Assembly: GCA_049604715.1 (NCBI GenBank)
Contig: JBMYTV010000002.1
Coordinates: 56,455-120,454, forward strand
Direction: 5' to 3'
Length of the DNA stretch: 64,000 nucleotides
Source of the DNA: Patescibacteria group bacterium
Lineage (GTDB): Bacteria > Patescibacteriota > Patescibacteriia > S139-126 > S139-133
Numbering within the stretch: the first letter of the stretch is position 1; each line of letters begins with the position of its first letter. Of this stretch, positions 10,435-64,000 are shown one piece after another. The position numbers were made by a program, and so were the translations under genes. The notes beneath the pieces are model-generated. The model was given only the letters and a program-made list of their open reading frames with translations, did not search any database and was not told where the DNA came from.

Positions 10435-10438
10435 AAAC

Positions 10439-10606: not shown

Positions 10607-10700
10607 GGATATACCCTTTCAGAGTTTAGTTTTTATACGTTTTAAAATGATCAAACACAAAATCCATCATATTGATATCTGATGGACTTGTCAAGAAATA

Positions 10701-31279: not shown

Positions 31280-31896
31280 TGAATAATTTACATAACAATA
31301 AAGGAATTTCACTATTCGAAGTACTGATTACTGTTGGTATATTTGTCGTGGTAGTGGTTGTGTGGAATCAAATGATCATTCAAAGTTATCGTTCAGCTGC
31401 TTTTGGCCAAGAGCAACAAGAAGCTATTCGGCAAGCAGAGCGTGGTATAGAACAAATGACAAAAGAAATCCGTGAAATGTCCACAGCAGAAGACGGCTCA
31501 TATGCTCTTGAATTAGCTGGTGACAATGAAATTATCTTTTACTCAGACATTGACCAGGACGTACTTACTGAACGCGTTCGATACTACTTGTCAGGTACAA
31601 CACTTTATAGAGGCACAGTCGAACCGTCTGGAGACCCACTAAGTTATGACACGGGGAGTGAGGTTGTAGCTCAGCTCGCAACTTATGTAAACAACACTAG
31701 CACAAGCATGTTTACTTATTACAATGATCAGTACCCATTTGATGATGTAAACAATCCCCTTCCTGCACCAGCTCGTTTGATTGAAACAAAACTACTTCAT
31801 GTTTTCTTGCGCATAAATATCGACCCAACCCAAGCACCTAACGATTTTGATGTTGAATCTGATGTGCAACTGAGGAATCTAAAGTCAAACTTATGA
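31279..31896 (+). CDS. pseudopilin / minor pilin with prepilin-type N-terminus
   Basis: MNNLHNNKG|ISLFEVLITVGIFVVVVVV: Gly-1, Glu+5 and a hydrophobic alpha1 helix. 205 aa. Confidence 0.7.
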   Translation: MNNLHNNKGISLFEVLITVGIFVVVVVVWNQMIIQSYRSAAFGQEQQEAIRQAERGIEQMTKEIREMSTAEDGSYALELAGDNEIIFYSDIDQDVLTERVRYYLSGTTLYRGTVEPSGDPLSYDTGSEVVAQLATYVNNTSTSMFTYYNDQYPFDDVNNPLPAPARLIETKLLHVFLRINIDPTQAPNDFDVESDVQLRNLKSNL

Positions 31897-34354: not shown

Positions 34355-34922
34355 ATTATCCCTAAACTTATTATCACCAACAGAGCGCATGGAGTCATCC
34401 CTGCAGTGGCATTATGTGATTATAAAAAATGTCATTTTTATGATTCTTTCAGTAACGTTTGTAATTGCTGTTATGCTTTTTGGTGCTAAGCTAATTTTGC
34501 TGAATAGACTTACTGAAGCAGAAATGCAAATATCTTTAGTTAATGCTTCACTAGCCGGAACAAATCAAAAAATAGCAAATGTAAATAAAGATTTGAGAGA
34601 TATAGAAAAAATACAAAAAGAATTTGTTCCTTGGTCTGAGTCACTATGGAATGTACTGACGCTTGTCCCAAACGAAATACAAGTCTCATCATTAAGGTTG
34701 TCATCGGATGAGAGCACTATCTACATAGACGGTATTGCGCAAACCCGAGAATCTTTACTCGAATTCCAGGAGTCACTTGAGACTGCTCAATTTGCTGAAA
34801 ATGTATACCTACCACTGGCAAGTCTTTTACAAAAAACAGACATAACATTTAATGTAACTATTACAGTCGCACCTGTTCTAGTTTCTGATTTACAAGAACA
34901 TGAAACTGAAGGAATTGAATAA
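34347..34922 (+). CDS. pilN: PilN-like bitopic protein
   Basis: 191 aa with a single N-terminal TM helix then a coiled-coil. Position after pilM with an 8-nt overlap. Confidence 0.5.
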   Translation: MSKLSLNLLSPTERMESSLQWHYVIIKNVIFMILSVTFVIAVMLFGAKLILLNRLTEAEMQISLVNASLAGTNQKIANVNKDLRDIEKIQKEFVPWSESLWNVLTLVPNEIQVSSLRLSSDESTIYIDGIAQTRESLLEFQESLETAQFAENVYLPLASLLQKTDITFNVTITVAPVLVSDLQEHETEGIE

Positions 34923-35439
34923 AAAACAAATAGTACATGTTAGCTTTGCACTTAGTGGCGCAGTAATTTTGGGCTTACTTGTGTTTATTGTACTTACAGT
35001 ACGTGATATTAAGGTTATTAGTGGCGACATATATTCTAAACGCGTAGCTCTAGAAACGAGATATCAATCAGGACTATCAATGCGTGAAAGTATTCAGCAG
35101 CTAGATGAAATAGAACCTTCAATTGAGAATGTTTCAACTGCTTTTGTATACAAAGAGCAAACACTAGAATTTGTAAATGACCTAGAAGAAACTGCGAGCA
35201 CATATAGACTAGAGCAGATTATCAATATCCCCGAAATCGACGCTGAGGACAAAGCCGTCACGGAATCACCCATCGGACTGACTTTGCGCGGCGAGGCAGA
35301 AGACATTTTTGCATATATTAATGCACTTGATAGCAAACCATACTATATCGTAGTGAATCAAATTGAACTAACAAATATCACAAGTGGTAATAGCACCGGT
35401 CTAACATGTGTTATTTCAGGTACAATTCATTGGAGATAA
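34900..35439 (+). CDS. pilO: PilO-like bitopic protein
   Basis: 179 aa with a single N-terminal TM helix. Gene order pilM-N-O. Confidence 0.45.
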   Translation: MKLKELNKKQIVHVSFALSGAVILGLLVFIVLTVRDIKVISGDIYSKRVALETRYQSGLSMRESIQQLDEIEPSIENVSTAFVYKEQTLEFVNDLEETASTYRLEQIINIPEIDAEDKAVTESPIGLTLRGEAEDIFAYINALDSKPYYIVVNQIELTNITSGNSTGLTCVISGTIHWR

Positions 35440-35444
35440 CTTAT

Positions 35445-35816
35445 ATGAAAAAAATACCTCTACCAAAAATCCCAATTAAAAAAGTCCTCAGTGTTGCACT
35501 GGGACAAATTAAACATATTGCGATTATTCTTTCCATTGTATTATTACTTAGCTTTGGTTGGTTTTTGTATCAAAACTTTTATACAACTATTATTAGCGCG
35601 CGAGAAATAGTTATTTTGGAAAGTGAAGTATCAAGTAATAATGTTGACATTCACCTATTACAACGTGTTGAGAAAAGCCATGCTGCAAAACAAGAGATTC
35701 AGATTAAGTCCTGGGGTGTTATGCGCAGTGCCTTTTCAGATACTCCAGCTACAAACAATGACCTGCAATTAGATGACCCGTTTTCTAATGAGGTCACTCC
35801 GCGGGTAACTTTCTAA
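35445..35816 (+). CDS. hypothetical bitopic membrane protein (PilP-position)
   Basis: Internal Met MKKIPLP at 35445 avoids overlap with the upstream gene. It has a single TM segment (IAIILSIVLLLSFGWFLY). Confidence 0.3.
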   Translation: MKKIPLPKIPIKKVLSVALGQIKHIAIILSIVLLLSFGWFLYQNFYTTIISAREIVILESEVSSNNVDIHLLQRVEKSHAAKQEIQIKSWGVMRSAFSDTPATNNDLQLDDPFSNEVTPRVTF

Positions 35817-41776: not shown

Positions 41777-42175
41777 TTAATTATCCTCCTCCATAAGTAT
41801 AAGTAGTATACGATAACTCACATACATAACACCAGCAAAAAGCACATAACCCATGAAGCTAGGCGAAAACTGCATTATCAAGTATATATATAAAAGCACC
41901 ACAACCACTCGCGCTATCCACACATCATAGTTTTTCACTGCGGTTGTAATAATCCCCTCAGAGGACTTCATATGGCCATATGGAGCAGTCCAGAGCACGC
42001 CAGTCAATCCCAATACAAGCACAAGCAACATCCAATGAGGAGAAAATACTGTAGAAATCATATATGGCCTTGTATCTTCTAAGAAAAATAGTACCAACAA
42101 ATAAACAAGCGACCACTTTAAAATAAGTGTGCTGATGTCATATATAAAACGTTTTGATTTTTTCGATAATGTCAT
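41777..42175 (-). CDS. hypothetical membrane protein
   Basis: 132 aa with 3-4 hydrophobic helices. Confidence 0.35.
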   Translation of the reverse strand: MTLSKKSKRFIYDISTLILKWSLVYLLVLFFLEDTRPYMISTVFSPHWMLLVLVLGLTGVLWTAPYGHMKSSEGIITTAVKNYDVWIARVVVVLLYIYLIMQFSPSFMGYVLFAGVMYVSYRILLILMEEDN

Positions 42176-42176
42176 A

Positions 42177-43007
42177 CTAGAACTTTTCTAAAACCCGTTG
42201 CCACACATCATTTATTGTCATAGGATCTTTTTTGTAAATTATGTCAATTGACTTCACGTCTACTGTTTGACTTCTATCATCAATACCTGGAGCAGAAATC
42301 ACAAACTCAAACCCTTCGGGAGACTGATATAGTTCACTAAAAACAAACTCAGCACGTGCAATGTTCCAATCCCCACTAGTACTAGGCGGGATGTACTGTG
42401 CAATAAAGTAGTCATAATTATCTAAATCAGTCTCATGGTTATAGCCATCGATCCGCAGCCGATCAAATCCCTCTTGTAAAGGAAAATTGTAATTAACAAC
42501 TCGTGCTGATCGTGGAGGAGCAAGTAAAAAGTTCTCTATACTCCTATACTGCGGTACGCGCTGACATAACCACCATTGTTTTTCCTCATCTCTAAGACAC
42601 GGCCATTCAATCTCTTCTAAGGCTTTATTCTGAACACCATGCCAGGCAAAATTCCAACCACTTTCACCTACAGCACCACCCAGCTGAATAAGTGGAACAG
42701 TATCCGCTCTATAAGTCAAAACCACCTCCACGGTGTCATATTGACGCGGAATAAACGAATGAATATATACAGGATCAATGATTACCTGCCAAAATTGATC
42801 ACCCACAAACCCTTTGGTTGTCAGTACTCGTAGCTCTGGATCTGGACCTGTAACCATAACATGCTCAGATGACACTGAATGCGATAGTATTCGCTCACCA
42901 TCAAGATCAAGATCAAGATACACCACATAACCAACAATACACACGAGACTTATAGCAAAAAGTGTGTGCAAAAATAATAGAAATATACGCTGTGGTGTAT
43001 AAGACAT
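42177..43007 (-). CDS. hypothetical protein with N-terminal membrane anchor
   Basis: 276 aa with a single N-terminal TM helix. Its start codon overlaps the start of the divergent + strand ORF. Confidence 0.4.
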   Translation of the reverse strand: MSYTPQRIFLLFLHTLFAISLVCIVGYVVYLDLDLDGERILSHSVSSEHVMVTGPDPELRVLTTKGFVGDQFWQVIIDPVYIHSFIPRQYDTVEVVLTYRADTVPLIQLGGAVGESGWNFAWHGVQNKALEEIEWPCLRDEEKQWWLCQRVPQYRSIENFLLAPPRSARVVNYNFPLQEGFDRLRIDGYNHETDLDNYDYFIAQYIPPSTSGDWNIARAEFVFSELYQSPEGFEFVISAPGIDDRSQTVDVKSIDIIYKKDPMTINDVWQRVLEKF

Positions 43008-45618: not shown

Positions 45619-47871
45619 TTATTTATAATGCCAAATGTACACGTCGCCTATTATATTCTCAGGTTCTCCCAAAATGTCAACCGTCTCCTTATATACACGG
45701 TCGTTTATCCACTTATCTTCGGTCATATAATAGCAGCTCGTGTCATTAGTTGCTTTTAGCGCCCAATCAAGTAGCTCTGTGTCTGGGAACTGACTCATAG
45801 TCTCAAAAATCTTCACTCTCTCTGGCTGAGAGTACTCAAAACCAACTGGAAAGCCGCCCCCTATAATCTCACGTCCCGAAACTGCCTCTACTGCCAAAAG
45901 TGGCCATGTATTTGCCAAAACACAGTAAAACTCGTCATTTTTATCTATACGCTCCCATACATACTGCGCAGATAAGTGTTCATCAGTGGTCACTACCTGA
46001 AGCAACGGACCTGATGCATAAGTGGATGATGCTACAAACGATACCATCACTACAACGAGTAAAACTTTTGTAGCCCAAGGCAGGTATCTCTTTTTTTCCA
46101 AAAAGTAAAAAATTCCTAAAGTCAAAAATACTGACAAGCAAAGTACTATAGTTACATCAAGCCGACGAGCTAAAATATGGTTACCATCAAGAAAGTACCA
46201 GGATAGAATATAATTTCCAAGCAGCACGCCTGTTAGTATCATGAAAAACCGAGGTACGATCTGCTGTTTTAAATGCTTTACTACTCTAAATCCAAGAGCT
46301 ATAAGTCCCCAAGCAAGAATAGTGAAAAATAATGGCCACAAGTTAAACTGCAAAAATGACACTGGCGCATGGTCGGCTCTTGTCTGGTTAAATAAAAAGT
46401 TGCCTTGGTCTACATGCCCTGTATGTGGCAAGTATGCAACAATTCCTGACAAATACCCAAAGGCATCAGCTAAAGCAGAGAAAGCCATGCCAAAACTTGC
46501 TGTTGCTGCATTTAGCTCACCATATCCTTGTACAAGCTCTAGACCTGGTATAAAAAGTGTTGCTCCTATGGCAAATACTATAAGCAGTGCCTGCCATACA
46601 CGTTTTGTATGTGTATACTTCTTTTGCAGTGCAAGTAAAAAAACAAGCACACCGATCTCAAGAAGTAATAAAAAGTGCAGCACATATCCAAAAAAGAGCA
46701 AAAGTGTAAATACACTATTCCATACACCAAGAGATCGAGACGGGACCTGCAAAAATCTAAGCCAACCATAAAGCGCAAACAAAAATACTATATGACCAAG
46801 TGACAAGGGCAATGTAATAGCCCCAAACACCTGGAGAGGATAAAACAATATAGGCACAAAGGCAAAAAACAGCGCAAAATGCCTTCCGGGTCTGATCAAG
46901 CCAGCTATTTTATATAACAGAAGCGGTACAAACAATGACCACAAAATAAACACCAACCAAAAGTCTATATAAAAAATATCAATTTGCAAAGTTTCAGCCA
47001 ACAAAATAGTAATAGCCCATTGCTGAGAATATGATGTTTTGTTGCCACTCACAAAAACGGCAGGCACTTCTACTCCGGCAATGGTGGCCATTTCCCTATT
47101 GTCACCAAGCAGTGACGGCTGATACACCGCCCCAGTCATCACAAGTCGCTCTGATGCTAAATGCCGCCATTTGTCCCCACCAAAACCAGTTTCATAAACC
47201 ACAGGTAAGTATGCATGCAAGGCAAATGACTGGATAATAATAACTGCTAAAATAACTGCGCCTTTTCGTTTTGAAAATATAAACAACCCCGCAATAGCAG
47301 TTAGCAAGATGTATACATATACATAAAGCCTTGGTATCACATGCCAAGGTGACAATATGAACTCACCTGTCCTGCCTTCAAACAAAAACAACAAACCTAC
47401 AATAACAACTGGAACAAATAACAGCGCCAAATACTTAGGTACGCTATAAGTCATACGAGGAGATTTAGCAAGCTGAAGATCCTCGTCTGCTATGTCATAT
47501 TTTTGAACAACCGGAACATACTGCAAAGCCTTAGCAAGAGCACTTACTATGAAAAGTACAAGTATCAAACTGCCTGTTGTATACCTAAATAAAGAAATAG
47601 GTATAGCAAGAAAAAGACTTGTAATCATAAGCGTTCCAAAAGCCCCAAACATCAGCGACCATCCACGGCTCAAGTCAAATAGCACTGCCATAGCCCTTGC
47701 AAGCCATACAGACACTATAGAAAAATATATAGTCGTACAGATAATACCAAAAAAAGTACTTTCCAGGCTCGTGTTAAAGAAAATACCGACTATACTAAGC
47801 AGTACCAATGTTACATACGCATAGTACTGATCTTTTTCTATACTACGAACAAAAGAATATAGTGTATTCAT
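45619..47871 (-). CDS. large polytopic membrane protein, GT-C-like glycosyltransferase candidate (YfhO/ArnT-like)
   Basis: 750 aa with more than 15 predicted TM helices and a C-terminal soluble domain. It co-occurs with a GtrA-family protein and two DPM1-like GT2 genes. A hairpin terminator lies downstream at about 47897..47925. Confidence 0.4.
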   Translation of the reverse strand: MNTLYSFVRSIEKDQYYAYVTLVLLSIVGIFFNTSLESTFFGIICTTIYFSIVSVWLARAMAVLFDLSRGWSLMFGAFGTLMITSLFLAIPISLFRYTTGSLILVLFIVSALAKALQYVPVVQKYDIADEDLQLAKSPRMTYSVPKYLALLFVPVVIVGLLFLFEGRTGEFILSPWHVIPRLYVYVYILLTAIAGLFIFSKRKGAVILAVIIIQSFALHAYLPVVYETGFGGDKWRHLASERLVMTGAVYQPSLLGDNREMATIAGVEVPAVFVSGNKTSYSQQWAITILLAETLQIDIFYIDFWLVFILWSLFVPLLLYKIAGLIRPGRHFALFFAFVPILFYPLQVFGAITLPLSLGHIVFLFALYGWLRFLQVPSRSLGVWNSVFTLLLFFGYVLHFLLLLEIGVLVFLLALQKKYTHTKRVWQALLIVFAIGATLFIPGLELVQGYGELNAATASFGMAFSALADAFGYLSGIVAYLPHTGHVDQGNFLFNQTRADHAPVSFLQFNLWPLFFTILAWGLIALGFRVVKHLKQQIVPRFFMILTGVLLGNYILSWYFLDGNHILARRLDVTIVLCLSVFLTLGIFYFLEKKRYLPWATKVLLVVVMVSFVASSTYASGPLLQVVTTDEHLSAQYVWERIDKNDEFYCVLANTWPLLAVEAVSGREIIGGGFPVGFEYSQPERVKIFETMSQFPDTELLDWALKATNDTSCYYMTEDKWINDRVYKETVDILGEPENIIGDVYIWHYK

Positions 47872-47957: not shown

Positions 47958-48671
47958 TCAGGCTGATTGCTTTACTACCTTAGGCACAAACATCTTATGC
48001 GGCACGATATATACGTGCTCATTCGTACCTGGAATTTCAAAACTCTCAATAACTTTGCCATCGTATTTGGACATATCACCCATGCGAATAGAGCGCCCTG
48101 CGGTTCTTCTTCCATTGGGCCAATAATTGACAATCAGTGACTGGCCAAACGCTGGATGGGTGCAACGTTGAATCTGTACACTAACCACTCCACGTTCACC
48201 TACACAGGTCTTCCCGTTCATCTCATCCCTTTTAAATCCGAAGAAGTGGCGCTTTACTACGACGGGCTTACCATGCCTATCGTGAGCCACATAACCCTGG
48301 CGGTAAAAACTTCTTTGGATCTTTACCATCCCCGGGATATTTTCTTGAAATGCAGGGAATTCAAGGATGAACTCCTCATAGTTTATGAGGTCGTCATTTG
48401 CAGCTGCAATTGCAGCCTCTACTTGGTCTCTGGACATCACATCCACATAACTGATTGGATGTTTGTATCCTTTGAACGGGAGCGGATTGGGCGGCTCGGT
48501 CCACTTGGGAAGCTTCTTTACAAAAAGCGAACCGGTGAACAAAACTTCGTAGTTAGCCATCTGCCGGGGATCAAAGTAGGGACTTTCTTCATTATTTTTT
48601 TCCGCCGAAATAGCTGCGACCAGCATTTCTTCAGTGGTCTCTTTAAATGGTGCAAAAATCACATGTTTCAT
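47958..48671 (-). CDS. hypothetical soluble protein
   Basis: 237-aa ORF with no recognised motif. Confidence 0.4.
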   Translation of the reverse strand: MKHVIFAPFKETTEEMLVAAISAEKNNEESPYFDPRQMANYEVLFTGSLFVKKLPKWTEPPNPLPFKGYKHPISYVDVMSRDQVEAAIAAANDDLINYEEFILEFPAFQENIPGMVKIQRSFYRQGYVAHDRHGKPVVVKRHFFGFKRDEMNGKTCVGERGVVSVQIQRCTHPAFGQSLIVNYWPNGRRTAGRSIRMGDMSKYDGKVIESFEIPGTNEHVYIVPHKMFVPKVVKQSA

Positions 48672-49942: not shown

Positions 49943-50851
49943 TTATCTATTCTTAAACCATTCCCAGGTTAATTGCAGCCCTTGTTCAAATGTGACCTTT
50001 GGCTCCCAGCCAAGATCTTGTTTTATCTTGTCGTACTTAAGCACACTTCGCATCATTTCTCCTTCAACATAACTCTCATGTATTGCTTGAGTATCTGAAC
50101 CAGCAACCTTTGCTTGTAGGTCATACAGATCATCAACTGAAATCTCAGTGTTGGTAGATACAATATACACGCCCATACCCTTAGTAATTCCTGTCATAAG
50201 CGCGTCAACCATATCACCAACATAAACAAAATCTCTTGTTTGTTTACCACCAAATATCTTTGAGGTATTACCCTCAAGCATGCTTTCAAAAAATAAAGCT
50301 ATAACCCCAGCCTCACCTTTTGGATCTTGCCGAGGCCCATACACATTTGATGGCCGAAAGCTTAGTGTCTCTATACCCTGAATCGTATGATAATACTGCA
50401 AAAAATTATCAATTGTCTGTTTTGCTAAGCCATATGGTGATAGCGGCATCTCTGGAGCCTCTTCATCTGCCGCGCCCTGAGCTTGATCATAGATAGCACC
50501 GCCTGATGATACAAAAATGATTTTTTTTGCACCTACTCTTTTTGCACTTTCCAAAATATTCAAACCTCCCAAAATATTCACTTCTGCATCAAATAATGGA
50601 TTTTCTAGTGAAACTCGTACATTTTTTTGGGCAGCCAAATGATACACTATGTCAGGCTTAAATTGACCAAAAAGCGACTCAACCTTTTTGTCTTGAATTT
50701 CAATCTGCTCAAAACTTGCTTTTGGGTTTATGTACTTTTTACTTCCTGTAGAAAGATCATCCAGTATCAATACATCATGACCTGCAACAATCAATGCGTC
50801 AACTAAATGAGAACCTATAAATCCCGCTCCTCCAGTAACCAAAATCTTCAT
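49943..50851 (-). CDS. NAD-dependent nucleotide-sugar epimerase/dehydratase (GalE/WbpP-like)
   Basis: MKILVTGGAGFIGSHLVD Rossmann motif and YxxxK region (SPYGLAKQ). Confidence 0.85.
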   Translation of the reverse strand: MKILVTGGAGFIGSHLVDALIVAGHDVLILDDLSTGSKKYINPKASFEQIEIQDKKVESLFGQFKPDIVYHLAAQKNVRVSLENPLFDAEVNILGGLNILESAKRVGAKKIIFVSSGGAIYDQAQGAADEEAPEMPLSPYGLAKQTIDNFLQYYHTIQGIETLSFRPSNVYGPRQDPKGEAGVIALFFESMLEGNTSKIFGGKQTRDFVYVGDMVDALMTGITKGMGVYIVSTNTEISVDDLYDLQAKVAGSDTQAIHESYVEGEMMRSVLKYDKIKQDLGWEPKVTFEQGLQLTWEWFKNR

Positions 50852-55097: not shown

Positions 55098-56983
55098 TAG
55101 TCATACACCAATGATCCCACGCGTACACCACCCGCAAAATTTGGGCTATACGCTTGGAGGGTTTGTTGTTTGTTTCCAAGCCAATCAAAAATACCAACCT
55201 CAGGCGCCATTCCAGCGCTATTTCCTACTACTACCTGTGTTAATCCATCACCATTCATATCAGTCGCCATAACAGTAAAGCCGCCCTTTATATTTTCTGG
55301 TGCTGCAAACCACTGACTAGCAATTGACCCATTTGGTGAAAAAATACGTATATGCGCTCCGCCATCTGCCGCTGGTGCAGTGATTATCTCAGATGAACCG
55401 TTTACGGCAATGTCACCAACTGCAACGTTTACACCACCGCGGAAGTTTTCATTGTACGCCATGAACTGACTTTGTACTGCACCTTGAGCATTAAATACTC
55501 TAACATGCGGACCGCCACCACTACCTGCTCCGGTTATAATTTCTGCAATTCCGTCCCCGTTAGTATCACCAACTGCAACGTTCACACCACCGCGAAATGC
55601 TGGATTATAAGCCATAAATTCATACTCAATAATACCATTCATATCAAAAACTCGAATAAGTGGAACATGATCATTTGTTGTCGCTGTGATGACTTCCACA
55701 AATCCGTCATTATCAACGTCACCACTTGCTGTACTAACACCGCCGCGGTAATACGACTCAAACGCAAACCACTGACTCAAAATATTTCCTTGATAATCAA
55801 GAACTCTAACATGCGGACCGCCTTGGCTGGCTGGTCCTGTGATCACGTATGACCTGTTTACTGCACTAGTTGGGTTACCACCAAGTGTAGCGTGTGCAGT
55901 TTCTAAACTAGCTTCAGCATTTACCACTCCAGATCCGACTTTGCCTTTAAACTCATTTTGCTGCAGAGCATCAATAGAATCGGATGAATTCACAATAATG
56001 TCACGAATCTGAGCAGGAGTAAGGCTAGGGTTTTTGGCTTTTATGAGAGCTGCTAAACCAGACACAACCGGGGCGGCCACTGATGTTCCACTCCAACCAC
56101 CGCCATAAGCCTCGCTAAATGAATCATTTTCAGGATCATAAACTTGTGTACCATAAAAAGAAACCCCAGGCGCAGCTACGTCAACACATTTTGATCCATA
56201 ATTTGAAAAATTAGTCAGAACATTAAACTGATCAAGTGCAGCTACACCAATAACCATGTTTTGAGCACCGTCATAACAAACAGGATACGCAGCATCAACT
56301 GCTAGATCCTTTGGCGCCTCACCTTCGTTACCAGATGCAGCAACCAGCACCACACCTTGGTTGTATGCTCTGGTGATTGCTTGTTCTAAATCAAAACTAT
56401 AATCACTCCCTACAAAACTTAAGTTAATAATATCTGCACCCTGTGCCACTGCATAGTCAATTGCACGAGCCACTTGAGACGCGTCACCATTACCTTGATT
56501 GTTTAGAACTTTAATAGGCATTATTTTAATCTGCCATGCCATTCCTGCTACACCAACACCATTGGCTCCTCGCGCACCAATAACCCCTGCTATGATTGTG
56601 CCGTGTTGCGCAGCCGAAAACTCAGCATCGGCAACATCAGGAATAACATTGTTATTGTTCTCCAAAAAATTCCATCCATAAAAATCATCCGTATAACCAT
56701 TACGATCATTGTCAATCTGATCATAAGGAATCTCTGATGTATTTACCCAAATATTATCTCGAAGATCTGGATGATTTATATCAACGCCTGTATCAAGTAC
56801 AGCAACTACAATATCATAGGAGCCTTGTGTATATTCCCATGCCCGTGGAGCTTTGATGTGTGGCAAATACCACTGTCTAAAAAAATCAGGGTCATTTGGA
56901 ACAATAGCAAAAGTAGGCTGTGCAATAACAAACAAGCCCAAGACAAATATGCTTAACCGTAAAAATATATTTTCTTTTTTCAT
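55097..56983 (-). CDS. secreted subtilisin-like serine protease (S8) with C-terminal FG-GAP/VCBS-type repeats
   Basis: Signal peptide, then the catalytic Asp (VAVLDTGVD), His (HGTIIAGVIGA) and Ser (GTSVAAPVVSGLAAL) motifs. The C-terminal repeats have the form GDxNGDG..E(V)I(T)...GGxHVR(V)F. Confidence 0.85.
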   Translation of the reverse strand: MKKENIFLRLSIFVLGLFVIAQPTFAIVPNDPDFFRQWYLPHIKAPRAWEYTQGSYDIVVAVLDTGVDINHPDLRDNIWVNTSEIPYDQIDNDRNGYTDDFYGWNFLENNNNVIPDVADAEFSAAQHGTIIAGVIGARGANGVGVAGMAWQIKIMPIKVLNNQGNGDASQVARAIDYAVAQGADIINLSFVGSDYSFDLEQAITRAYNQGVVLVAASGNEGEAPKDLAVDAAYPVCYDGAQNMVIGVAALDQFNVLTNFSNYGSKCVDVAAPGVSFYGTQVYDPENDSFSEAYGGGWSGTSVAAPVVSGLAALIKAKNPSLTPAQIRDIIVNSSDSIDALQQNEFKGKVGSGVVNAEASLETAHATLGGNPTSAVNRSYVITGPASQGGPHVRVLDYQGNILSQWFAFESYYRGGVSTASGDVDNDGFVEVITATTNDHVPLIRVFDMNGIIEYEFMAYNPAFRGGVNVAVGDTNGDGIAEIITGAGSGGGPHVRVFNAQGAVQSQFMAYNENFRGGVNVAVGDIAVNGSSEIITAPAADGGAHIRIFSPNGSIASQWFAAPENIKGGFTVMATDMNGDGLTQVVVGNSAGMAPEVGIFDWLGNKQQTLQAYSPNFAGGVRVGSLVYD

Positions 56984-57042
56984 ATGTATATAGTAGCAAA
57001 TTGTAGCTAAAACATAAACAAAAGTTTACGATTTGCTACAAG

Positions 57043-58704
57043 CTAAAGCAACCCTTGCTGCTTTAAATAATCACACACCATATCAACCGCCTCTGTGACA
57101 CTTGTCTCAGATGTATCAATACTGATCTCAGCACTATCAGGCTCTTCATAAGGGTCGTCAATGCCAGTCACATTTTGGATTAGTCCGGCCTCTGCTTTTG
57201 AATACAAACCTTTTACATCACGTTGCTTACATACCGCAAGGGGTGTTGCCACATGCACCTCAATGTATACACCATATGTTGAGATTAGTTCACGATTATA
57301 GTCACGCGACTGAGCATACGGTGCAATAGCAGCGCACAGCGCAATACCACCGTGACGTACGACCTCAGCTGCGACAAAGCCAATACGCTGCACATTTGTA
57401 TTTCTATCTTCTTTGGAAAATCCTAAACCTTTTGATAAATGTTGCCGGATAATATCTCCATCAAGGTACGTTATTGGCCGATGCTGAATCTCTAGAAGTC
57501 TAGTATGAAGAGCTTGTGCTATAGTGCTCTTACCTGCCCCAGAAAGTCCTGTGAAGAAAAGTGTAAATCCACGAACTGAATCCACATATCGTGATGACTG
57601 CAACTCATCAAGTACTTCAGGAAATGAAAACCATTCAGGAATTTGTTCGTTTTTCGCAAGCTTGTTTCTAAACTCTGTCCCTGAGATGTAAAGTGGTTTT
57701 GAATTTTCAGTTTGTTCGTGAGTAGAGATGTATTGTTTTGTATGACCATCATAAAAAAGTTCGGGTGCAGATATTACCTTTATACCAATTTCATCTGCAA
57801 ACTGCTGTACATACTCTTGTGCATCATACAACCCATAAAAAGGATTGCCATTACTATCCTTACCAGGTCCCGCATGATCTCTACCAATAATAAAATGAGT
57901 ACATCCATAGTTTTTTCTTATAAGCGCATGCCACAAGGCCTCACGCGGCCCACCCATTCGCATAGCAAGCGGTAGCAAGCTTAACATAGTAAACTCCGGA
58001 GCATATTTTTCATGCACATGTTGATATGCACGTACACGTGTAATAGCATCTATATCACCTGTTTTAGTCTCACCAACAGCCGGATGGATGAGTACTGTCC
58101 CACCATGCTCCTCTGATGCTCGTTTGATCACTTCAAAATGTGCACGATGCAGAGGATTGCGAGTTTGAAAGCCAACCAATGTATCTATGTTATTCTGAAG
58201 TTTGTATTCATGTATCTCCTCTGGGGTTTTATAAAGGGACTGGAATAATTCATGCGATGGGATTGCAATTCTCTCAATAATACCACCAATGTATACGGGA
58301 TGAGTTTCAGATAAAATATATGAAACCCCGAAATGACTTTCATCGTCAGTTCCATACACTTGTTTAACCTCGTGTTCTTTATCAGGAACAAAAACTGACT
58401 CAACTAACATTAGCGCCAGTAAATTACCATATGCATCACAAAGCGCGACTTCTTGCCCTTCTGTATATGTGTGGTTTTCAGGAACATCAAGAACAACCGG
58501 CATTGGCCATACTGATCCATTTGGAAGTCTGGCATTATCCACAACTGACTTATACTCATCTTCAGTCATAAATCCAGTGAGCGGCGCAAATCCACCATTC
58601 AAAATAAGCTCCAAATCACTTAACTGGCGTTTGGTCAACCTGATATGCGGTATATGTAAAGCGCGCTGTTTTAGCGCCTCATATGTAGTCTTTTTTGTAT
58701 TCAT
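57043..58704 (-). CDS. bifunctional sulfate adenylyltransferase (ATP sulfurylase) / adenylylsulfate kinase (PAPS synthase)
   Basis: N-terminal ATP-sulfurylase motifs QTRNPLHRAHFE and GRDHAGPG. C-terminal APS kinase P-loop FFTGLSGAGKSTIAQAL. 553 aa. Confidence 0.9.
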   Translation of the reverse strand: MNTKKTTYEALKQRALHIPHIRLTKRQLSDLELILNGGFAPLTGFMTEDEYKSVVDNARLPNGSVWPMPVVLDVPENHTYTEGQEVALCDAYGNLLALMLVESVFVPDKEHEVKQVYGTDDESHFGVSYILSETHPVYIGGIIERIAIPSHELFQSLYKTPEEIHEYKLQNNIDTLVGFQTRNPLHRAHFEVIKRASEEHGGTVLIHPAVGETKTGDIDAITRVRAYQHVHEKYAPEFTMLSLLPLAMRMGGPREALWHALIRKNYGCTHFIIGRDHAGPGKDSNGNPFYGLYDAQEYVQQFADEIGIKVISAPELFYDGHTKQYISTHEQTENSKPLYISGTEFRNKLAKNEQIPEWFSFPEVLDELQSSRYVDSVRGFTLFFTGLSGAGKSTIAQALHTRLLEIQHRPITYLDGDIIRQHLSKGLGFSKEDRNTNVQRIGFVAAEVVRHGGIALCAAIAPYAQSRDYNRELISTYGVYIEVHVATPLAVCKQRDVKGLYSKAEAGLIQNVTGIDDPYEEPDSAEISIDTSETSVTEAVDMVCDYLKQQGLL

Positions 58705-58846
58705 AACCCTTTAATAATAACAGATATACTGATCTAATAAAATAAATGCCTGGGGGTATTGATTTTTTTCAAGATTTATGTTTTAATATGAGGTCAAATC
58801 TTATATTTAGCTATTTTTTTAGGCTTAACCCTAGTATAATAGTGAT

Positions 58847-60202
58847 ATGACTATAAAAACACGTAAAATACTAATGATTCTTGGTGATATAGGCATCTTT
58901 TATGCCTCTCTTTACCTTGCATTGACTATTCGTACTCAAACCCTTGTCACGCAAGGTGTGTGGGCTGATCATTGGCCTACTTTTACTGTTGTGTTTGGTT
59001 TATGGATTATTGGGCTCTACATAATTGATTTTTATGACCTTTCATCTGCTAAAAATGACCGAAAATTTATCATCCGTGTTGGCGTTGCTGCAGCTGTACT
59101 AACTACACTTGCTGTGTTGTATTTCTATACCATACCAAACCTCCGCATTGCACCAAAGACTATTTTGATCATTGATGTTTTGATTACACTGGCACTTCTT
59201 ATTGGATGGCGCCTAGCATTCAACAAACAAGCAAAGAACGCATCTCACTCACTAATTGCTATTGGTATTGGTTCTTCTGGTCAATCATTGCTTCAAGAAA
59301 TTCAGAACACTCCTCAGTGGGGGTACAAAACAGTAGCAATTTTTGATGAAAATGCTAAACCTGAATTTTCACCTATACCTACCTTTACTACACTTGATAA
59401 TCTGTCTCAGATTATTTCAGATACAGACACAAAGACTATTGTAGTTGATGACAAGCTGTACACATCAGAGAGATATATCAACACACTCTTTTCTATTATC
59501 AGCCCTGATATCACTATCATTCCCCTTACACTTTTATACGAACAAATTGCACAAAAAATTCCTGTACAAAGCATTTCAAAATCATGGTTTTTAGAAAATA
59601 TTAGCAAACATGACCATGACATTCATGACAAGATACAACGTTTGGTTGATATTGTGTTCTCACTATTCCTGCTTGTCATTACCTTACCTCTCTATCCATT
59701 AATCATACTTGCTATCAAGCTTGATTCACCTGGTCCAGCATTTTATAGACAAGAACGGCTAGGATATTTAGGCAAACCATTTATGATGATTAAATTCCGC
59801 ACAATGGTTGAAAAAGCGGAGAAAAATGGAGCGCAGTGGGCACAAAAAAATGACCCCCGTATAACTCGAGTAGGCAAATGGATGCGCAAATCCCGCATTG
59901 ATGAGCTCCCGCAAATGATGAATATTTTAAAAGGTGAAATGAGCTTTATAGGACCTCGTGCTGAAAGACAGGCATTTATTGAGCAGCTTGAACAAGAGCT
60001 TCCATTTTACAAACAAAGACTACTTGTCAAACCAGGAGCAAGTGGCTGGGCACAGGTCAATTATAAGTATGGCGCTAGTGTTGAAGATGCTTTAGAAAAA
60101 TTACAATACGATTTATACTACGTAAAAAATCGTAACTGGTATTTGGATGCCAGCATTGTACTCAAAACTATCAAAATTATGAGTAGCCTTGGAGGGCAAT
60201 AA
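58847..60202 (+). CDS. polyprenyl-phosphate sugar-1-phosphate transferase (WbaP/PglC 'bacterial sugar transferase' family)
   Basis: 451 aa with N-terminal TM helices and C-terminal Bac_transf motifs (MMIKFRTM...DELPQMMNILKGEMSFIGPRAE). Confidence 0.85.
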   Translation: MTIKTRKILMILGDIGIFYASLYLALTIRTQTLVTQGVWADHWPTFTVVFGLWIIGLYIIDFYDLSSAKNDRKFIIRVGVAAAVLTTLAVLYFYTIPNLRIAPKTILIIDVLITLALLIGWRLAFNKQAKNASHSLIAIGIGSSGQSLLQEIQNTPQWGYKTVAIFDENAKPEFSPIPTFTTLDNLSQIISDTDTKTIVVDDKLYTSERYINTLFSIISPDITIIPLTLLYEQIAQKIPVQSISKSWFLENISKHDHDIHDKIQRLVDIVFSLFLLVITLPLYPLIILAIKLDSPGPAFYRQERLGYLGKPFMMIKFRTMVEKAEKNGAQWAQKNDPRITRVGKWMRKSRIDELPQMMNILKGEMSFIGPRAERQAFIEQLEQELPFYKQRLLVKPGASGWAQVNYKYGASVEDALEKLQYDLYYVKNRNWYLDASIVLKTIKIMSSLGGQ

Positions 60203-60204
60203 AC

Positions 60205-61455
60205 ATGGTTGAAAAAATAAAAGTCATGCTATTCAAACTTCTTAGGAAGTCAGAAAAATACACCAAAACAGACATGGTGTATTTAGCCAAAGGCGGCTTT
60301 TGGCTAGGTATGAGCAAAATGGTGAGCGCTGGCTCTGCATTTTTGCTAGCTCTGGCATTTGCTAACCTGCTTCCTCAAGAAGAGTATGGTACTTACAAAT
60401 TTATTTTCTCAATTGTCAGCATACTTATTATAAGTTCAATGCCTGGTATTAATACTGCTCTTACACAGGCAGTTGCCAGAGGCTTTGAGGGGTCAATACT
60501 AACAAGTGTTAAAACAAAAATAAAATGGTCAACACTTGGTGCGCTTGGCAGTTTAGCTATAGCTGCATATTACTATATAAACAATGACCCAACACTTACA
60601 TATGCGTTTTTAATAGCTGCGATTTTCTTACCTTTCATTGACTCGTTCAATGTCTATGAACCATATCTGCAAGGAAGAAAAATGTTCAAGCAGTCAGCTA
60701 TCTTAAGCTCTATCCTGCAGAGCACCACAGTACTGTCTATGATAGCGTTTTTGTTCTTCACCAACAATGTAATTCTTGTTGTTGCAGCACACTTTGTGAT
60801 GTACACGTTGATCAAGTACATTTTCTACCTGTTTGTTACAAAAAAGTACAAACCAAATAATAAGATTGACCCTGGGTCAGTATCCTATGGCAGACATCTT
60901 TCATTCATTAATGTTATAGGCACAATTGGCGGACAAATTGACAAAATTCTATTGTGGCATTTCTTAGGTGCGGCATCACTGGCTGTGTACGCATTTGCCT
61001 TAGCTCCAGTTGATCAATTCCGTAGCATGCTTAAGTCTCTAAATATCCTTGCGTTTCCAAAACTAGCAGCGCAAGATACCGCAGTACTCAAAAAAACAAT
61101 TCCACAAAAAATGCTAAAGCTGTTTTTACTGCTCATTATACCTGTTACAGCATATATTCTTTTGGCACCGTACCTGTATAAAATATTTTTCCCTTTATAT
61201 GCAGAATCAGTCGAATACACCAGATGGTATGCGCTTTTTTTACTGAAATTCCCTACCAATCTTATGGGACAAACCCTCACTGCCAAAAAACAACAAAGAA
61301 CTCAATATAAATTAAAAATTATTAACCTTATTACAAAAATAACACTGTTTTTAGTTCTTACACCTATATTTGGCATCCATGGCGCTATTGCTACACTTCT
61401 AATCGCCCCAGTTATCAATAGCATTTTGGTTGCGTATCATTTCTATAAACTATGA
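60205..61455 (+). CDS. Wzx-like polysaccharide flippase (second copy)
   Basis: 416 aa with about 12 TM helices and polysaccharide-biosynthesis-protein-like topology. Confidence 0.7.
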   Translation: MVEKIKVMLFKLLRKSEKYTKTDMVYLAKGGFWLGMSKMVSAGSAFLLALAFANLLPQEEYGTYKFIFSIVSILIISSMPGINTALTQAVARGFEGSILTSVKTKIKWSTLGALGSLAIAAYYYINNDPTLTYAFLIAAIFLPFIDSFNVYEPYLQGRKMFKQSAILSSILQSTTVLSMIAFLFFTNNVILVVAAHFVMYTLIKYIFYLFVTKKYKPNNKIDPGSVSYGRHLSFINVIGTIGGQIDKILLWHFLGAASLAVYAFALAPVDQFRSMLKSLNILAFPKLAAQDTAVLKKTIPQKMLKLFLLLIIPVTAYILLAPYLYKIFFPLYAESVEYTRWYALFLLKFPTNLMGQTLTAKKQQRTQYKLKIINLITKITLFLVLTPIFGIHGAIATLLIAPVINSILVAYHFYKL

Positions 61456-62353
61456 GCAATATAACGAACTTTGATATTGACTTTATTGGCATTGGAACAG
61501 GTCATGCTGGCACGAGTTGGGTATTTACATGTATTAAAGAACACCCAGCAGTCTGTGATGCAAAGAAAAAAGAAACAAAGTTTTTCCGTGATCATTATCA
61601 TAAGGGCATTGAATATTATGCATCCCTCTTTTCATCATGTGATGACACACTTTTAAAAGGTGAATTTACACCTAGTTATATGTATGATGAGACAATTGCT
61701 GAACGCATTCATGCACACTTTCCTAAAGCTAAGATTATTGTTTGTCTCAGACATCCGTATGAACGTTTGCGGTCTGCGTATTACTTTAATAAACAACGCG
61801 CAGTTCTTTCGTTTGAAAATTTGAATAAAAAGATTCAATATGATATTGAAGCTGCTACCGGCACTGGCAGTGAACTCATTCGACAAGGAAACTACTACTC
61901 TTTTTTGAAGAAATATTATAAATTATTTGGAGCTTCCCAAATCCATATAATTTATTACGAAGATATAAAAAATAATCCTGAAAAAGTTATTGAAACCGTA
62001 TATAAATTCTTGTCTATCGACCCAAAGTACACCCCTTCTTCTCTTTCAAAAAAATCAATGTTACTGCACGTAACAAACGCTATATTGCTAGTCTCCCAAA
62101 AATTAAAACAAAGGTAAGTACATGGTTGCTACAAAGTTCTGTTGGCAAAGTCATCTTGAATATTGCGCGTACTACAGGTGTCACATCAATTGTAAACCGC
62201 ATACTGAAGCACAATATACGTCATTCAAACCTAGATCCCATACATAAAGAAATGTTATCTGATACCACAAAAAAATCATTACGCCAAATATATGCGAATG
62301 ATATTAAAGACTTAGAATCACTTTTGAAAAATAAAACTCCCTGGAACTTATAA
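61452..62353 (+). pseudogene. PAPS-dependent sulfotransferase interrupted by a -1/+2 frameshift in an A7 homopolymer (61452..62117 plus 62126..62353)
   Basis: The N-terminal part has a 5'-PSB-like IGTGHAGTSW motif and a 3'-PB-like RHPYERLRSAYY motif. The second ORF continues the same protein in another frame. Adding one A to the run at 62048..62054 joins them into a roughly 296-aa ORF (…SLSKKINVTARNKRYIASLPKIK…). Confidence 0.55.
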
Positions 62354-62355
62354 AA

Positions 62356-64000
62356 TTATCTCGCTCTCAAATACGCTACCAACTTTGTATTTACTTTCAA
62401 ACTACTTTTCTGCATTATACGCTTCATACCTGAAGTGGTACTTTTTTTGATAATCACAGGATACCGACGAGCTCTGAATTGGGCTCTTTTTATATGCTGC
62501 AACCAAGTTGGATCATGCAGCAAGCTACTTAGCGACAGACCAATATGTGGATACCAGCAACGGGTGTATGTCTTTGATTTTGGTGTAAGACTTAAGATGG
62601 GTTGATCATGTCGTGGATCGTCAGGTGCCCCAACTATATCAAAACTTTCCTCAAAACGAATCGGCTTCTCTTTATACGCGTAGTAAAACTCATAATCAAG
62701 CAGCCATACTTTTCTATCAGTATCAACAAGCACATCAACAGGGTGAGCATCATACAAATAATACCCCTGCGTATAAAAACATTTTAAAATATCCATAGCC
62801 TTTTTCGCAGCCCACAGTGGCATGATCCAGCCACGCGAATACTCGTGCATAGGTTCGTAGTATGGATACATAATATAATTTGGACCCTTTTCAACTAACG
62901 GTGGCACGCCTTGACACTTTTCAGCAAATTCAGTCGCTGCATATATAGACCTATCTAAAAATTTTTCTCTACCTGGACGAAACGTTTTTTTGACGTATTG
63001 CTTACAATCACTCTTTTCTATAAGCTCTACTTTGGCGCGTCTTCCATTTTTAGTTAAATCACTTATAACACGCTCATTAGTCGCAAACACTTCTTGCATA
63101 TTCTGTATTTCTTGCATAATTACACTTTTTTCTTCTTGAGTAAAAATAAAACTCATGTACTCAAGCGCTTCAGCGGCAGTATCACTTGAATGAATAGGAT
63201 TGTAGCTTTCACTTTTCGAAAGTGAGTGATTAATAAACTCGCGAATCCGATGTTTCACAAGTATTCGCTCATTATCAATTCCTGCAAACCTTATCTCTTG
63301 CATAGGTGACAGATTACGCGGTAGTAAATCATAAACAACATACATGTGCGCTGGCTTTCCGCCAGAAACTGGCCATGGACCTTTGTTCCAATTGCCACCC
63401 CTTGCCTCCTCAGTTAGCGTATCTTTTTGTTGTTCACTCAAACTTTCAGATCGCAAAACATTAAATCCCTCATCTTCCAATGTTTTTTGTATAAAGGGTA
63501 ATCTATTTTCTTTTACTGCTTGCTCACGAACAATAAAAACAGTCAAACCTCTGAGCTCAGTATGCAGACTATCTGCAAAATGATAATCCTTTATCCATTC
63601 ATTTTGCTTAGCAAGACGCCTGAGCATATCACGCGCAGGTTGAAGGCCATGTTCTTTTAAAAACCTATCTAAATCCTCTAGTTTATACTTTCCAGTGTAT
63701 GCAACAGCATCAGCGTACTTCTGCATCTCAGCAACGTAGTCGTGATCAGGGCTTTCTTCAGGGCTAGTAGGTTTAGTAGAACTTGGTACACCAGATATAT
63801 ATCCCTTGTGATACAGAGCATGATATGCGAGTGAGTAAAAACTGTGCTTTTTATCTGGGACATAAGCGCCAGATGATTCATCAAAAGTGGCTGAGCTCAA
63901 AATGCTCTTAGCAATTTTTGGTGGGAAATATGACATGCCACTATACTCAAATCCAGGTTGACCAGTAATTGAATATGCATCACAGGGGATAAGTCCTGGC
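62356..64000 (-). CDS. two-domain hypothetical protein with C-terminal protein-kinase-like fold (Kdo/WaaP/APH-like); may start upstream of the window
   Basis: The C-terminal half has a Lys-containing beta-strand (KQYVKKTF), a catalytic-loop-like DAHPVDVLVD and an iDxE/DFG-like LLDYEF. The reading frame is still open from 63937 to the window end. Confidence 0.5.
   Translation of the reverse strand, partial: PGLIPCDAYSITGQPGFEYSGMSYFPPKIAKSILSSATFDESSGAYVPDKKHSFYSLAYHALYHKGYISGVPSSTKPTSPEESPDHDYVAEMQKYADAVAYTGKYKLEDLDRFLKEHGLQPARDMLRRLAKQNEWIKDYHFADSLHTELRGLTVFIVREQAVKENRLPFIQKTLEDEGFNVLRSESLSEQQKDTLTEEARGGNWNKGPWPVSGGKPAHMYVVYDLLPRNLSPMQEIRFAGIDNERILVKHRIREFINHSLSKSESYNPIHSSDTAAEALEYMSFIFTQEEKSVIMQEIQNMQEVFATNERVISDLTKNGRRAKVELIEKSDCKQYVKKTFRPGREKFLDRSIYAATEFAEKCQGVPPLVEKGPNYIMYPYYEPMHEYSRGWIMPLWAAKKAMDILKCFYTQGYYLYDAHPVDVLVDTDRKVWLLDYEFYYAYKEKPIRFEESFDIVGAPDDPRHDQPILSLTPKSKTYTRCWYPHIGLSLSSLLHDPTWLQHIKRAQFRARRYPVIIKKSTTSGMKRIMQKSSLKVNTKLVAYLRAR

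What the first reader, a model, noticed from the sequence alone, without database searches (positions are those of the whole stretch)
62040..62130. Frameshift in an A7 homopolymer splits the sulfotransferase
The 221-aa ORF and the following 75-aa ORF are consecutive parts of one sulfotransferase. Inserting a single A into the run at 62048-62054 restores a continuous reading frame (…SLSKKINVTARNKRYIASLPKIKTKVSTWLLQSS…). This may be a homopolymer sequencing or assembly error, a genuine inactivating mutation, or a slippage-prone phase-variation site controlling glycan sulfation.
Basis: seen in the sequence. Interest (0 to 1): 0.5.

Follow-up and report, generated by a model that had tools for sequence, protein, structure and literature searches.

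The report
Frameshifted sulfotransferase gene at A7 run
A sugar-sulfating enzyme gene in an uncultured ultra-small bacterium (Patescibacteria) is broken in two by a one-base frameshift at a run of seven A's; the break appears in two separate assemblies and looks recent, but it is an ordinary kind of gene disruption, and only the raw reads can show whether it acts as an on/off switch.

Summary
An A7 run lies at 62048-62054. The 221-aa ORF (61452-62117) and the -1-frame stretch ending at 62353 are consecutive parts of one ~300-aa PAPS-dependent carbohydrate-type sulfotransferase. A profile built from 14 intact homologues, without the query, hits the two frames at positions 4-203 and 189-289. Testing every possible one-base repair puts the best score exactly on the A run, although a repair 1-4 nt downstream (KKSN or KKYN instead of KKIN) scores within about 1 bit.

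An independent Logan assembly of run SRR27204692 is 100% identical over 8,436 nt, A7 included. The other 61 long homopolymers inside ORFs, including all seven 8-mers, leave their frames open, so systematic homopolymer error is unlikely. The part after the break shows no decay. The catalytic motifs, the adjacent PAPS synthase and the operon partners are intact.

Most likely this is a genuine, recent A8-to-A7 deletion in the dominant genotype that switches the gene off at the DNA level. It could revert by slippage. I found no evidence for an evolved phase-variation switch or for programmed recoding: there is no stimulatory RNA structure, homologues are single ORFs, and no second allele was found. 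A read-level error cannot be excluded. Interest is low.

The parts
61452..62117 (+). Upstream ORF, 221 aa. Residues 1-202 are the genuine N-terminal two thirds of the sulfotransferase. Residues 203-221 (SMLLHVTNAILLVSQKLKQR minus the shared residues) are an out-of-frame tail ending at TAA 62115-62117. Its start overlaps the flippase stop (ATGA).
   Evidence: Pfam Sulfotransfer_1 at 1.3e-18 and Sulfotransfer_3 at 4e-13. It is identical to NCBI MGB0757155.1, 'MAG: sulfotransferase domain-containing protein [Patescibacteria group bacterium]'. The homologue profile matches at positions 4-203.
62048..62054 (+). A7 homopolymer, the most probable site of the one-base loss. In frame 0 it reads TC A_AAA_AAA TCA.
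   Evidence: The junction scan plateau lies at 62046-62054.
62054..62353 (+). C-terminal third of the sulfotransferase in the -1 frame (ATC AAT GTT ... TAA; INVTARNKRY...KTPWNL). It holds the nearly invariant N203 and the invariant D284 and L288.
   Evidence: Alignment to 14 intact homologues of about 300 aa. Profile positions 189-289, E 2.5e-20. The AlphaFold model of the repaired protein has pLDDT 91.4 with helices at 214-227, 230-242, 244-254 and 271-292.
62126..62353 (+). It is only the mechanically callable part of the C-terminal region and lacks residues 203-225.
   Evidence: It is not present as a called protein in the 15-billion-protein collection.
62059..62075 (+). Weak 6-bp hairpin (UGUUAC-UGCAC-GUAACA) starting 4 nt after the run. 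I do not consider it a frameshift stimulator.
   Evidence: Folding of 62055-62140 gives -8.8 kcal/mol with z = +0.99. Folding of 62020-62200 gives z = +0.61.
57043..58704 (-). Intact bifunctional PAPS synthase (PUA_2 + ATP-sulfurylase + APS kinase), transcribed divergently from the operon. It supplies the sulfate donor.
   Evidence: Pfam 4e-76 and 2.3e-57.
58847..60202 (+). Priming sugar-phosphate transferase (Bac_transf), the first gene of the same-strand operon.
   Evidence: Pfam 1.3e-65.
60205..61455 (+). Oligosaccharide flippase (Polysacc_synt, Wzx-like). It overlaps the sulfotransferase start by 4 nt.
   Evidence: Pfam 3.4e-20. NCBI names it 'oligosaccharide flippase family protein'.

Best explanation
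The A7 is the real sequence of the dominant genotype of this Patescibacteria population. A gene for a ~300-aa PAPS-dependent carbohydrate-type sulfotransferase lost one base. This gene is the last in a three-gene operon (sugar transferase, flippase, sulfotransferase) that lies next to a PAPS synthase. The lost base was most probably an A, by replication slippage in an A8 tract (TCA AAA AAA ATC AAT becoming TCA AAA AAA TCA AT). Translation now leaves the conserved frame after Lys202, adds 19 unrelated residues and stops. The product lacks the C-terminal 98 residues, which carry conserved residues and four helices of the fold, and is expected to be inactive. The event is recent, because nothing downstream has decayed. 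It could revert by the same slippage, and rare transcriptional or ribosomal slippage on the run could yield traces of full-length enzyme. These are by-products of the sequence, not demonstrated functions. Shown: the split, the position of the junction, agreement between two assemblies, and the intact context. Inferred: the A8 ancestor, loss of activity, and recency.
For: There is one gene in two frames, and the junction maximum falls on the A run. An independent Logan assembly of SRR27204692 is 100% identical over 8,436 nt, including the A7. The window is 94% coding. Of 73 long homopolymers, 62 lie inside ORFs, and only this one breaks a frame. All seven 8-nt runs sit in open frames, including an in-frame GCA AAA AAA ATC in the epimerase gene 49943-50851, which has the same context as the proposed ancestor. 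The ratio of C-terminal to N-terminal identity to homologues is 0.67, against 0.635 +/- 0.115 among intact homologues, so there is no detectable decay. Motif residues R100, S108, E71 and the GTSW loop are intact. The repaired protein folds with confidence (pLDDT 91.4) as a sulfotransferase closest to 3rnl and heparan-sulfate 3-O-sulfotransferases. An intact homologue in a Saccharibacteria MAG (L003) has AAT AAA AAA ATT at the same site, so the KK(I) motif naturally makes long A runs.
Against: I had no read-level data. Both assemblies probably derive from the same reads, so a systematic platform error at an A8 would appear in both. The sequencing platform of SRR27204692 is unknown to me (one search found nothing). 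No close relative exists in any collection I searched, so neither an intact A8 allele nor the ancestral state has been observed. The intact PAPS synthase and the undecayed C-terminus fit an intact gene (error) or a switchable gene equally well. Loss of activity in the truncated product is inferred, not measured.
Confidence: 0.6

Rival explanations
1. Sequencing or consensus artefact. The organism has A8 and an intact 300-aa sulfotransferase, and the reads under-call the homopolymer.
For: Homopolymer under-calling is the classic indel error. The downstream part is perfectly preserved. The PAPS synthase and operon partners are intact, and I found no other sulfotransferase in the window that could use the PAPS. 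Only 7 other 8-mers are available as internal controls, so an error rate of about 10% per 8-mer cannot be excluded.
Against: Two assemblies made with different software agree base for base over 8.4 kb. All seven 8-nt runs and 54 further runs of 7 nt or more (6 or more for G/C) inside ORFs are in frame. A k-mer assembly yielding a 13.5-kb contig that is 100% identical points to accurate reads (inference).
Confidence: 0.2
2. Evolved phase-variable contingency locus. The A7/A8 tract toggles by slipped-strand mispairing, giving sulfated and unsulfated surface-glycan subpopulations. The assembled consensus happens to show the OFF state.
For: A one-base change in tract length toggles the frame. The gene modifies a surface glycan, a typical target of phase variation. 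There is an exact precedent in a small AT-rich genome: Mycoplasma hominis vaa has A8 as ON and A7 or A9 as OFF, switching at 1e-3 to 1e-4 (PMC524362). The downstream part shows no decay. An A8 ON state would sit at the maximum homopolymer length this genome tolerates.
Against: A7 runs are commonplace here, with 36 sense-strand A7 runs in ORFs. The tract lies two thirds of the way into the gene rather than near the 5' end. No alternative allele exists in any collection, and exact look-ups of the A8 and A5 products were negative. Homologues do not conserve a long tract (A5 to A7, or none). Heterogeneity could not be tested.
Confidence: 0.12
3. Programmed recoding. Full-length enzyme is made from the A7 template by -1 ribosomal frameshifting on A_AAA_AAA, or by RNA polymerase adding an A on the run.
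For: In frame 0 the run is an in-phase X_XXY_YYZ heptamer (TC A AAA AAA TCA). A -1 slip gives exactly ...SKKINVT..., the best-scoring repair. Transcriptional insertions occur mainly in A/T runs and rise exponentially with run length (PMC5574713). A small hairpin starts 4 nt downstream.
Against: Any A8-to-A7 loss in this phase creates that heptamer automatically. Nine other genes in the window carry the same in-phase A7 heptamer with no frameshift requirement. The downstream structure is no better than shuffled sequence (z = +0.99 and +0.61). No Shine-Dalgarno-like element lies upstream; the sequence CCCCTTCTTCTCTTTC is visible. Every intact homologue is a single ORF. Seven bases is shorter than the runs of 9 or more used in known slippage recoding (my own knowledge of dnaX in Thermus and of IS elements).
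Confidence: 0.05
4. Functional split enzyme. The 221-aa and 75-aa products are made separately and assemble.
For: The TTG at 62126 lies 9 nt after the frame-0 stop, with an AAAGG just upstream.
Against: Residues 203-225, including the nearly invariant N203 and the N208 and R210 conserved in close homologues, would be missing from both pieces. No homologue is organised this way apart from one other broken copy (L004). The 75-aa ORF is not called anywhere.
Confidence: 0.02

Closest known systems
Mycoplasma hominis vaa adhesin poly-A switch (A8 ON; A7 or A9 OFF)
   Same: An A7/A8 coding-region tract in a small AT-rich genome, where a one-base change truncates a surface-related product (PMC524362).
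   Different: In vaa the tract is at the 5' end, and both states were observed in clonal cultures at 1e-3 to 1e-4. Here only the OFF state is seen, in one sample, with the tract two thirds into the gene.
Homopolymer-frameshifted genes of AT-rich endosymbionts (Buchnera, Blochmannia) partly rescued by transcriptional slippage
   Same: A reduced AT-rich genome with a frameshift in a poly(A) tract of an otherwise intact gene. RNA polymerase insertions in A runs could restore the frame (PMC5574713; the title and abstract of PMC3017870 were seen).
   Different: As I recall, the rescued tracts there are typically about 10 nt or longer. Here the run is 7 nt, and this genome has no run longer than 8 in 64 kb. 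PMC5574713 itself found no case of a transcription error restoring a pseudogene's frame.
Programmed -1 frameshifting at A_AAA_AAG/A (E. coli dnaX, IS3-family transposases)
   Same: An in-phase A_AAA_AAA heptamer, with a -1 product that equals the homologous protein.
   Different: There is no strong downstream stem-loop or pseudoknot, no upstream SD-like element, and no conservation among homologues.
Heparan-sulfate 3-O-sulfotransferases / NDST sulfotransferase domain, and the bacterial sulfotransferase 3rnl (Alicyclobacillus)
   Same: The best sequence and fold matches: phmmer 4e-13 to 1e-8, Foldseek 3.6e-14 to 1e-10, TM about 0.65. The E-x-[ST]-P-x-Y and R...S (3'-phosphate-binding) motifs are shared.
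   Different: Identity is only 16-19%. The substrate is unknown. His replaces the usual Lys/Arg in the 5'-phosphosulfate loop. The gene is interrupted.

Membership tests
PAPS-dependent sulfotransferase (Pfam PF00685/PF13469; HS 3-OST/NST-like) | Significant match to the family profile | tested here: met
   Sulfotransfer_1 at 67 bits (cut-off 22) and Sulfotransfer_3 at 50 bits (cut-off 27). PDB hits reach 4e-13.
PAPS-dependent sulfotransferase (Pfam PF00685/PF13469; HS 3-OST/NST-like) | 5'-phosphosulfate-binding loop (P/x-K-x-G-T-T/S-W) with catalytic Lys | tested here: inconclusive
   The loop is present as GIGTGHAGTSW, with G13, G15 and W23 invariant. His19 stands where most homologues have Lys/Arg. 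The two closest homologues also have His.
PAPS-dependent sulfotransferase (Pfam PF00685/PF13469; HS 3-OST/NST-like) | 3'-phosphate-binding motif (R...S) and catalytic Glu in E-x-T/S-P-x-Y | tested here: met
   R100, S108, E71, P74 and Y76 are invariant or near-invariant columns. They align to EKSPAYF and VREPTTRAIS of 3-OST-5.
PAPS-dependent sulfotransferase (Pfam PF00685/PF13469; HS 3-OST/NST-like) | Complete fold including the C-terminal helices | tested here: met
PAPS-dependent sulfotransferase (Pfam PF00685/PF13469; HS 3-OST/NST-like) | Uninterrupted reading frame encoding the whole domain | tested here: not met
   The frame breaks after codon 202. The frame-0 stop is at 62115-62117.
PAPS-dependent sulfotransferase (Pfam PF00685/PF13469; HS 3-OST/NST-like) | Sulfate transfer from PAPS to an acceptor | not testable with these tools
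   This needs an enzyme assay.
Phase-variable contingency locus (slipped-strand mispairing) | A simple repeat whose unit change switches the reading frame of a surface-related gene | tested here: met
   A7 gives a truncated product and A8 gives the full-length one. The context is a glycan operon.
Phase-variable contingency locus (slipped-strand mispairing) | Tract-length heterogeneity within a population, or both ON and OFF alleles among close strains | tested here: not met
   The read-level test could not be done here. At the database level only the A7 allele exists, in two assemblies of one sample.
Phase-variable contingency locus (slipped-strand mispairing) | Tract unusually long for the genome | tested here: inconclusive
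   A7 is common, with 64 A7/T7 runs in 64 kb. The putative ON length of 8 is the maximum observed (7 runs, none of 9 or more).
Programmed -1 ribosomal frameshift site | In-phase X_XXY_YYZ slippery heptamer | tested here: met
   TC A_AAA_AAA TCA. Nine other genes carry the same in-phase heptamer.
Programmed -1 ribosomal frameshift site | Stable stimulatory structure 5-9 nt downstream and/or an SD-like element upstream | tested here: not met
   There is only a 6-bp AU-rich hairpin at a 4-nt spacing. Folding is no better than shuffles (z = +0.99 and +0.61). The upstream sequence is pyrimidine-rich.
Programmed -1 ribosomal frameshift site | Two-frame organisation conserved in homologues | tested here: not met
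   Ten loci carry an intact single ORF, and all 14 aligned proteins are single ORFs. The one other split copy (L004) breaks in the +1 direction at a different sequence.

The most novel reading that the evidence does not exclude
The A7/A8 tract is a true contingency locus. In that case a member of the Patescibacteria (CPR) would switch sulfation of its surface glycan on and off stochastically, for example to vary attachment to host cells or to escape phages. The metagenome consensus would simply have caught the OFF phase. I know of no described homopolymer-based phase variation of a glycan-modifying enzyme in this radiation. My literature searches found nothing linking Patescibacteria with sulfotransferases, and nothing on simple-repeat phase variation within Saccharibacteria themselves.
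Probability: 0.12. Interest if true: 0.55.

Novelty: new member of a known kind. Interest (0 to 1): 0.2.

Why it matters
In practical terms, the public record annotates the 221-aa fragment (MGB0757155.1) as an ordinary sulfotransferase-domain protein. Biologically, the locus is a compact sulfated-glycan module: a PAPS synthase, a priming transferase, a flippase and a sulfotransferase, in a reduced-genome Patescibacteria MAG. If the break is real, this population has just lost surface sulfation or can toggle it. That is a modest but testable pointer to cell-surface variation in an episymbiotic lineage. If it is an error, nothing of note remains.

Tried and rejected
- **Close relatives for allele comparison.** I searched with the repaired protein and a five-sequence alignment against genome contigs, with the exact DNA pattern (variable run length) and the protein against metagenome contigs, and against the 5.8-billion-protein search. 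Nothing closer than 49% identity turned up, so no orthologue-level comparison or dN/dS was possible. One search failed because alignment A1 was too divergent to seed a search.
- **Exact look-ups.** The A8 and A5 repaired products and the 75-aa ORF are absent from the 15-billion-protein collection.
- **Fetching the Logan contig.** The 221-aa protein and the flippase were not on record. It worked via the sugar transferase and the PAPS synthase.
- **Literature on SRR27204692.** No paper mentions the run, so platform and habitat remain unknown.
- **RNA families and structure.** There are no Rfam matches in the window, and the folds downstream of the run are unremarkable. I rejected programmed frameshifting on this basis.
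- **A second sulfotransferase as an alternative PAPS user.** I looked with the family profile over all six frames and with Pfam scans of 35 further ORFs. None was found. Several ORFs have no Pfam hit, and the rest of the 140-kb contig was not visible.
- **Split functional enzyme.** Rejected because conserved residues 203-225 would be lost.

Full report
**Observation.** The sequence at 62040-62060 reads CTCTTTCAAAAAAATCAATG, and the run of seven A's occupies 62048-62054. ORF 61452-62117 encodes 221 aa. The next ORF on the same strand, 62126-62353, encodes 75 aa and lies in the -1 frame (equivalently +2) relative to the first.

**One gene, two frames.**
- The 221-aa ORF passes the Pfam sulfotransferase thresholds: Sulfotransfer_1 at 67 bits and Sulfotransfer_3 at 50 bits.
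- The protein search returned about 40 homologues, nearly all 275-332 aa. The repaired protein aligns to them end to end, with identities of 49%, 45% and 40% for the closest.
- A profile of the 14 aligned homologues, built without the query, hits the frame-0 segment at profile positions 4-203 (E 1e-80) and the -1-frame segment 62006-62350 at positions 189-289 (E 2.5e-20). Nothing else in the six-frame translation of the window matches.
- I built every possible single-base insertion between 62000 and 62120 and scored each chimeric protein against that profile. The score is 347.2 bits for insertions at 62046-62054, 346.1-346.6 at 62055-62058, and 342.2 or lower at or before 62041 and at or after 62059. 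Two-base deletions reach at most 340.1.
- So homology places the break on the A run. It does not separate the A-run repair (KKIN, which is also the family consensus) from an extra base just downstream (KKSN or KKYN). The closest homologue, L001, reads AAA AAA TCA AAT = KKSN at this point.
- Because indel rates rise steeply with run length (established knowledge), an A8-to-A7 loss remains the likeliest event. That step is an inference.

**What the protein is.**
- The best PDB sequence matches are the bacterial sulfotransferase 3rnl, the heparan-sulfate 3-O-sulfotransferases and the NDST sulfotransferase domain (4e-13 to 1e-8).
- These alignments cover the catalytic Glu motif (GEFTPSY against EKSPAYF) and the 3'-phosphate-binding motif (LRHPYERLRS).
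It places four helices (214-227, 230-242, 244-254, 271-292) in the part after the break.
- Foldseek again gives 3rnl and the 3-OSTs, with alignments of more than 300 columns.
- The region after the break contains the nearly invariant N203 and W298 and the invariant D284 and L288. I therefore infer that the truncated product, 202 genuine residues plus 19 unrelated ones, is inactive. This was not measured.
- One oddity: the 5'-phosphosulfate loop has His where most homologues have Lys or Arg. The two closest intact homologues share this.

**Genomic context.**
- NCBI holds the 221-aa product as MGB0757155.1 from a 'Patescibacteria group bacterium' MAG, on a contig of 140,427 nt.
- The gene is last in a same-strand series: Bac_transf priming transferase (58847-60202), Wzx-like flippase (60205-61455), then the sulfotransferase. 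The genes are separated by a 2-nt gap and a 4-nt ATGA overlap.
- An intact bifunctional ATP-sulfurylase/APS-kinase (PAPS synthase, 57043-58704) is transcribed divergently from this series.
- Further upstream lie glycosyltransferases, epimerases, GtrA and a second flippase.
- The repaired gene would end 2 nt from the stop of a convergent 769-aa ORF, so the 'spacer' at 62118-62355 is really coding sequence.
- I found no other sulfotransferase in the window.

**Artefact or real?**
- I could not see reads. Three indirect tests were possible.
- First, the Logan project's independent assembly of run SRR27204692 contains a 13,532-nt contig that is 100% identical to window 55565-64000 over 8,436 nt. 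It includes the A7, and its gene caller also produced the 221-aa product.
- Second, the window is 94% coding, with this as the only obvious split gene. Of 73 long homopolymers (A/T of 7 or more, G/C of 6 or more), 62 lie inside ORFs and only this one breaks a frame. All seven 8-nt runs are in open frames.
- One of those 8-nt runs, in the epimerase gene 49943-50851, reads GCA AAA AAA ATC. That is the same context as the proposed intact ancestor.
- Third, the C-terminal part is as similar to homologues, relative to the N-terminal part, as in intact family members: 0.67 against 0.635 +/- 0.115. That fits a recent event, an error, or a switch, but not an old pseudogene.
- Taken together, an assembler artefact is essentially excluded and systematic homopolymer error is unlikely.
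- An isolated read-level miscall shared by both assemblies remains possible. I put it at about 0.2.

**Recoding and phase variation.**
- In frame 0 the run forms an in-phase A_AAA_AAA heptamer, and a -1 slip would produce exactly the best-scoring protein. However, any A8-to-A7 loss in this phase creates that heptamer, and nine other genes here carry the same in-phase heptamer.
- The only downstream structure is a 6-bp AU-rich hairpin 4 nt away. Folding energies are no better than those of shuffled sequence (z = +0.99 and +0.61).
- The upstream sequence is pyrimidine-rich with no SD-like element. Homologues are single ORFs.
- RNA polymerase does insert A's mainly in A/T runs, with exponential dependence on run length (PMC5574713). 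Traces of full-length enzyme are therefore plausible, but a 7-nt run is short.
- For phase variation there is an exact precedent. Mycoplasma hominis vaa is ON with A8 and OFF with A7 or A9, switching at 1e-3 to 1e-4 (PMC524362).
- Here, however, only one allele is known, A7 runs are commonplace, and the tract is not conserved in homologues. I rate an evolved switch at about 0.12 and programmed recoding at about 0.05.

**Verdict.**
- The finding is real and correctly described.
- The best-supported reading is a genuine, recent one-base loss in an A8 tract that inactivates the terminal sulfotransferase of a sulfated-glycan module in the dominant genotype of a Patescibacteria population (confidence 0.6).
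- This is a new instance of a very well-known kind of lesion, so interest is low (0.2).
- Counting A7 against A8 in the SRR27204692 reads, with the window's other 8-mers as controls, would decide between real mutation, error and phase variation.

Noticed in passing
window 9803-10700: An 898-nt stretch has no ORF longer than 63 aa in a window that is otherwise 94% coding. Its GC is 0.43-0.46 against about 0.39 in the surroundings. There is no tRNA or tmRNA and no Rfam match (best E 0.17). It may be an undescribed structured RNA or a decayed gene.
   Followed up: partly
whole window: A/T homopolymer counts roughly halve with each added base from length 4 to 7 (A/T: 377/352, 183/145, 75/59, 35/29). 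They then collapse to 2/5 at length 8 and zero at length 9 or more. Genes are not frameshifted elsewhere, so this ceiling at 8 looks biological, i.e. selection against slippage-prone runs.
   Followed up: partly
L004 5977-6898 (Candidatus Dadabacteria MAG MFD05684.bin.1.387, contig of 727,604 nt): A 34%-identical homologue is also split, at almost the same profile position (3-187 in one frame, 196-294 in the +1 frame). The break lies just after the conserved Asn codon, around AAC AAA GTC TAA, with no long homopolymer there. Both the direction and the sequence differ from the window's break.
   Followed up: partly
window 61488-61520 (residues 13-23, GIGTGHAGTSW): The 5'-phosphosulfate-binding loop has His where most family members have the catalytic Lys/Arg. 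The two closest intact homologues (P0002, P0003) also have His, so this is a sub-clade trait and not decay.
   Followed up: no
window 62356-64000 (- strand; 769 aa in L013 40-2349): A large convergent ORF ends 2 nt from the sulfotransferase stop and has no Pfam domain. The ORFs at 45619-47871 (750 aa), 47958-48671 (237 aa), 42177-43007 (276 aa), 41777-42175 (132 aa) and 31893-33290 (465 aa) also lack Pfam hits.
   Followed up: no
window 34347-35816: Three consecutive same-strand ORFs downstream of pilM overlap by 23 and 34 nt (34347-34922, 34900-35439, 35406-35816). These are probably over-extended start codons of pilN/pilO-like genes, but I did not check them for frameshifts.
   Followed up: no
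L006 5935-7732 (Candidatus Saccharimonadia MAG): Two tandem paralogous sulfotransferases of this family lie head to tail, which shows the family can be duplicated in CPR genomes.
   Followed up: no
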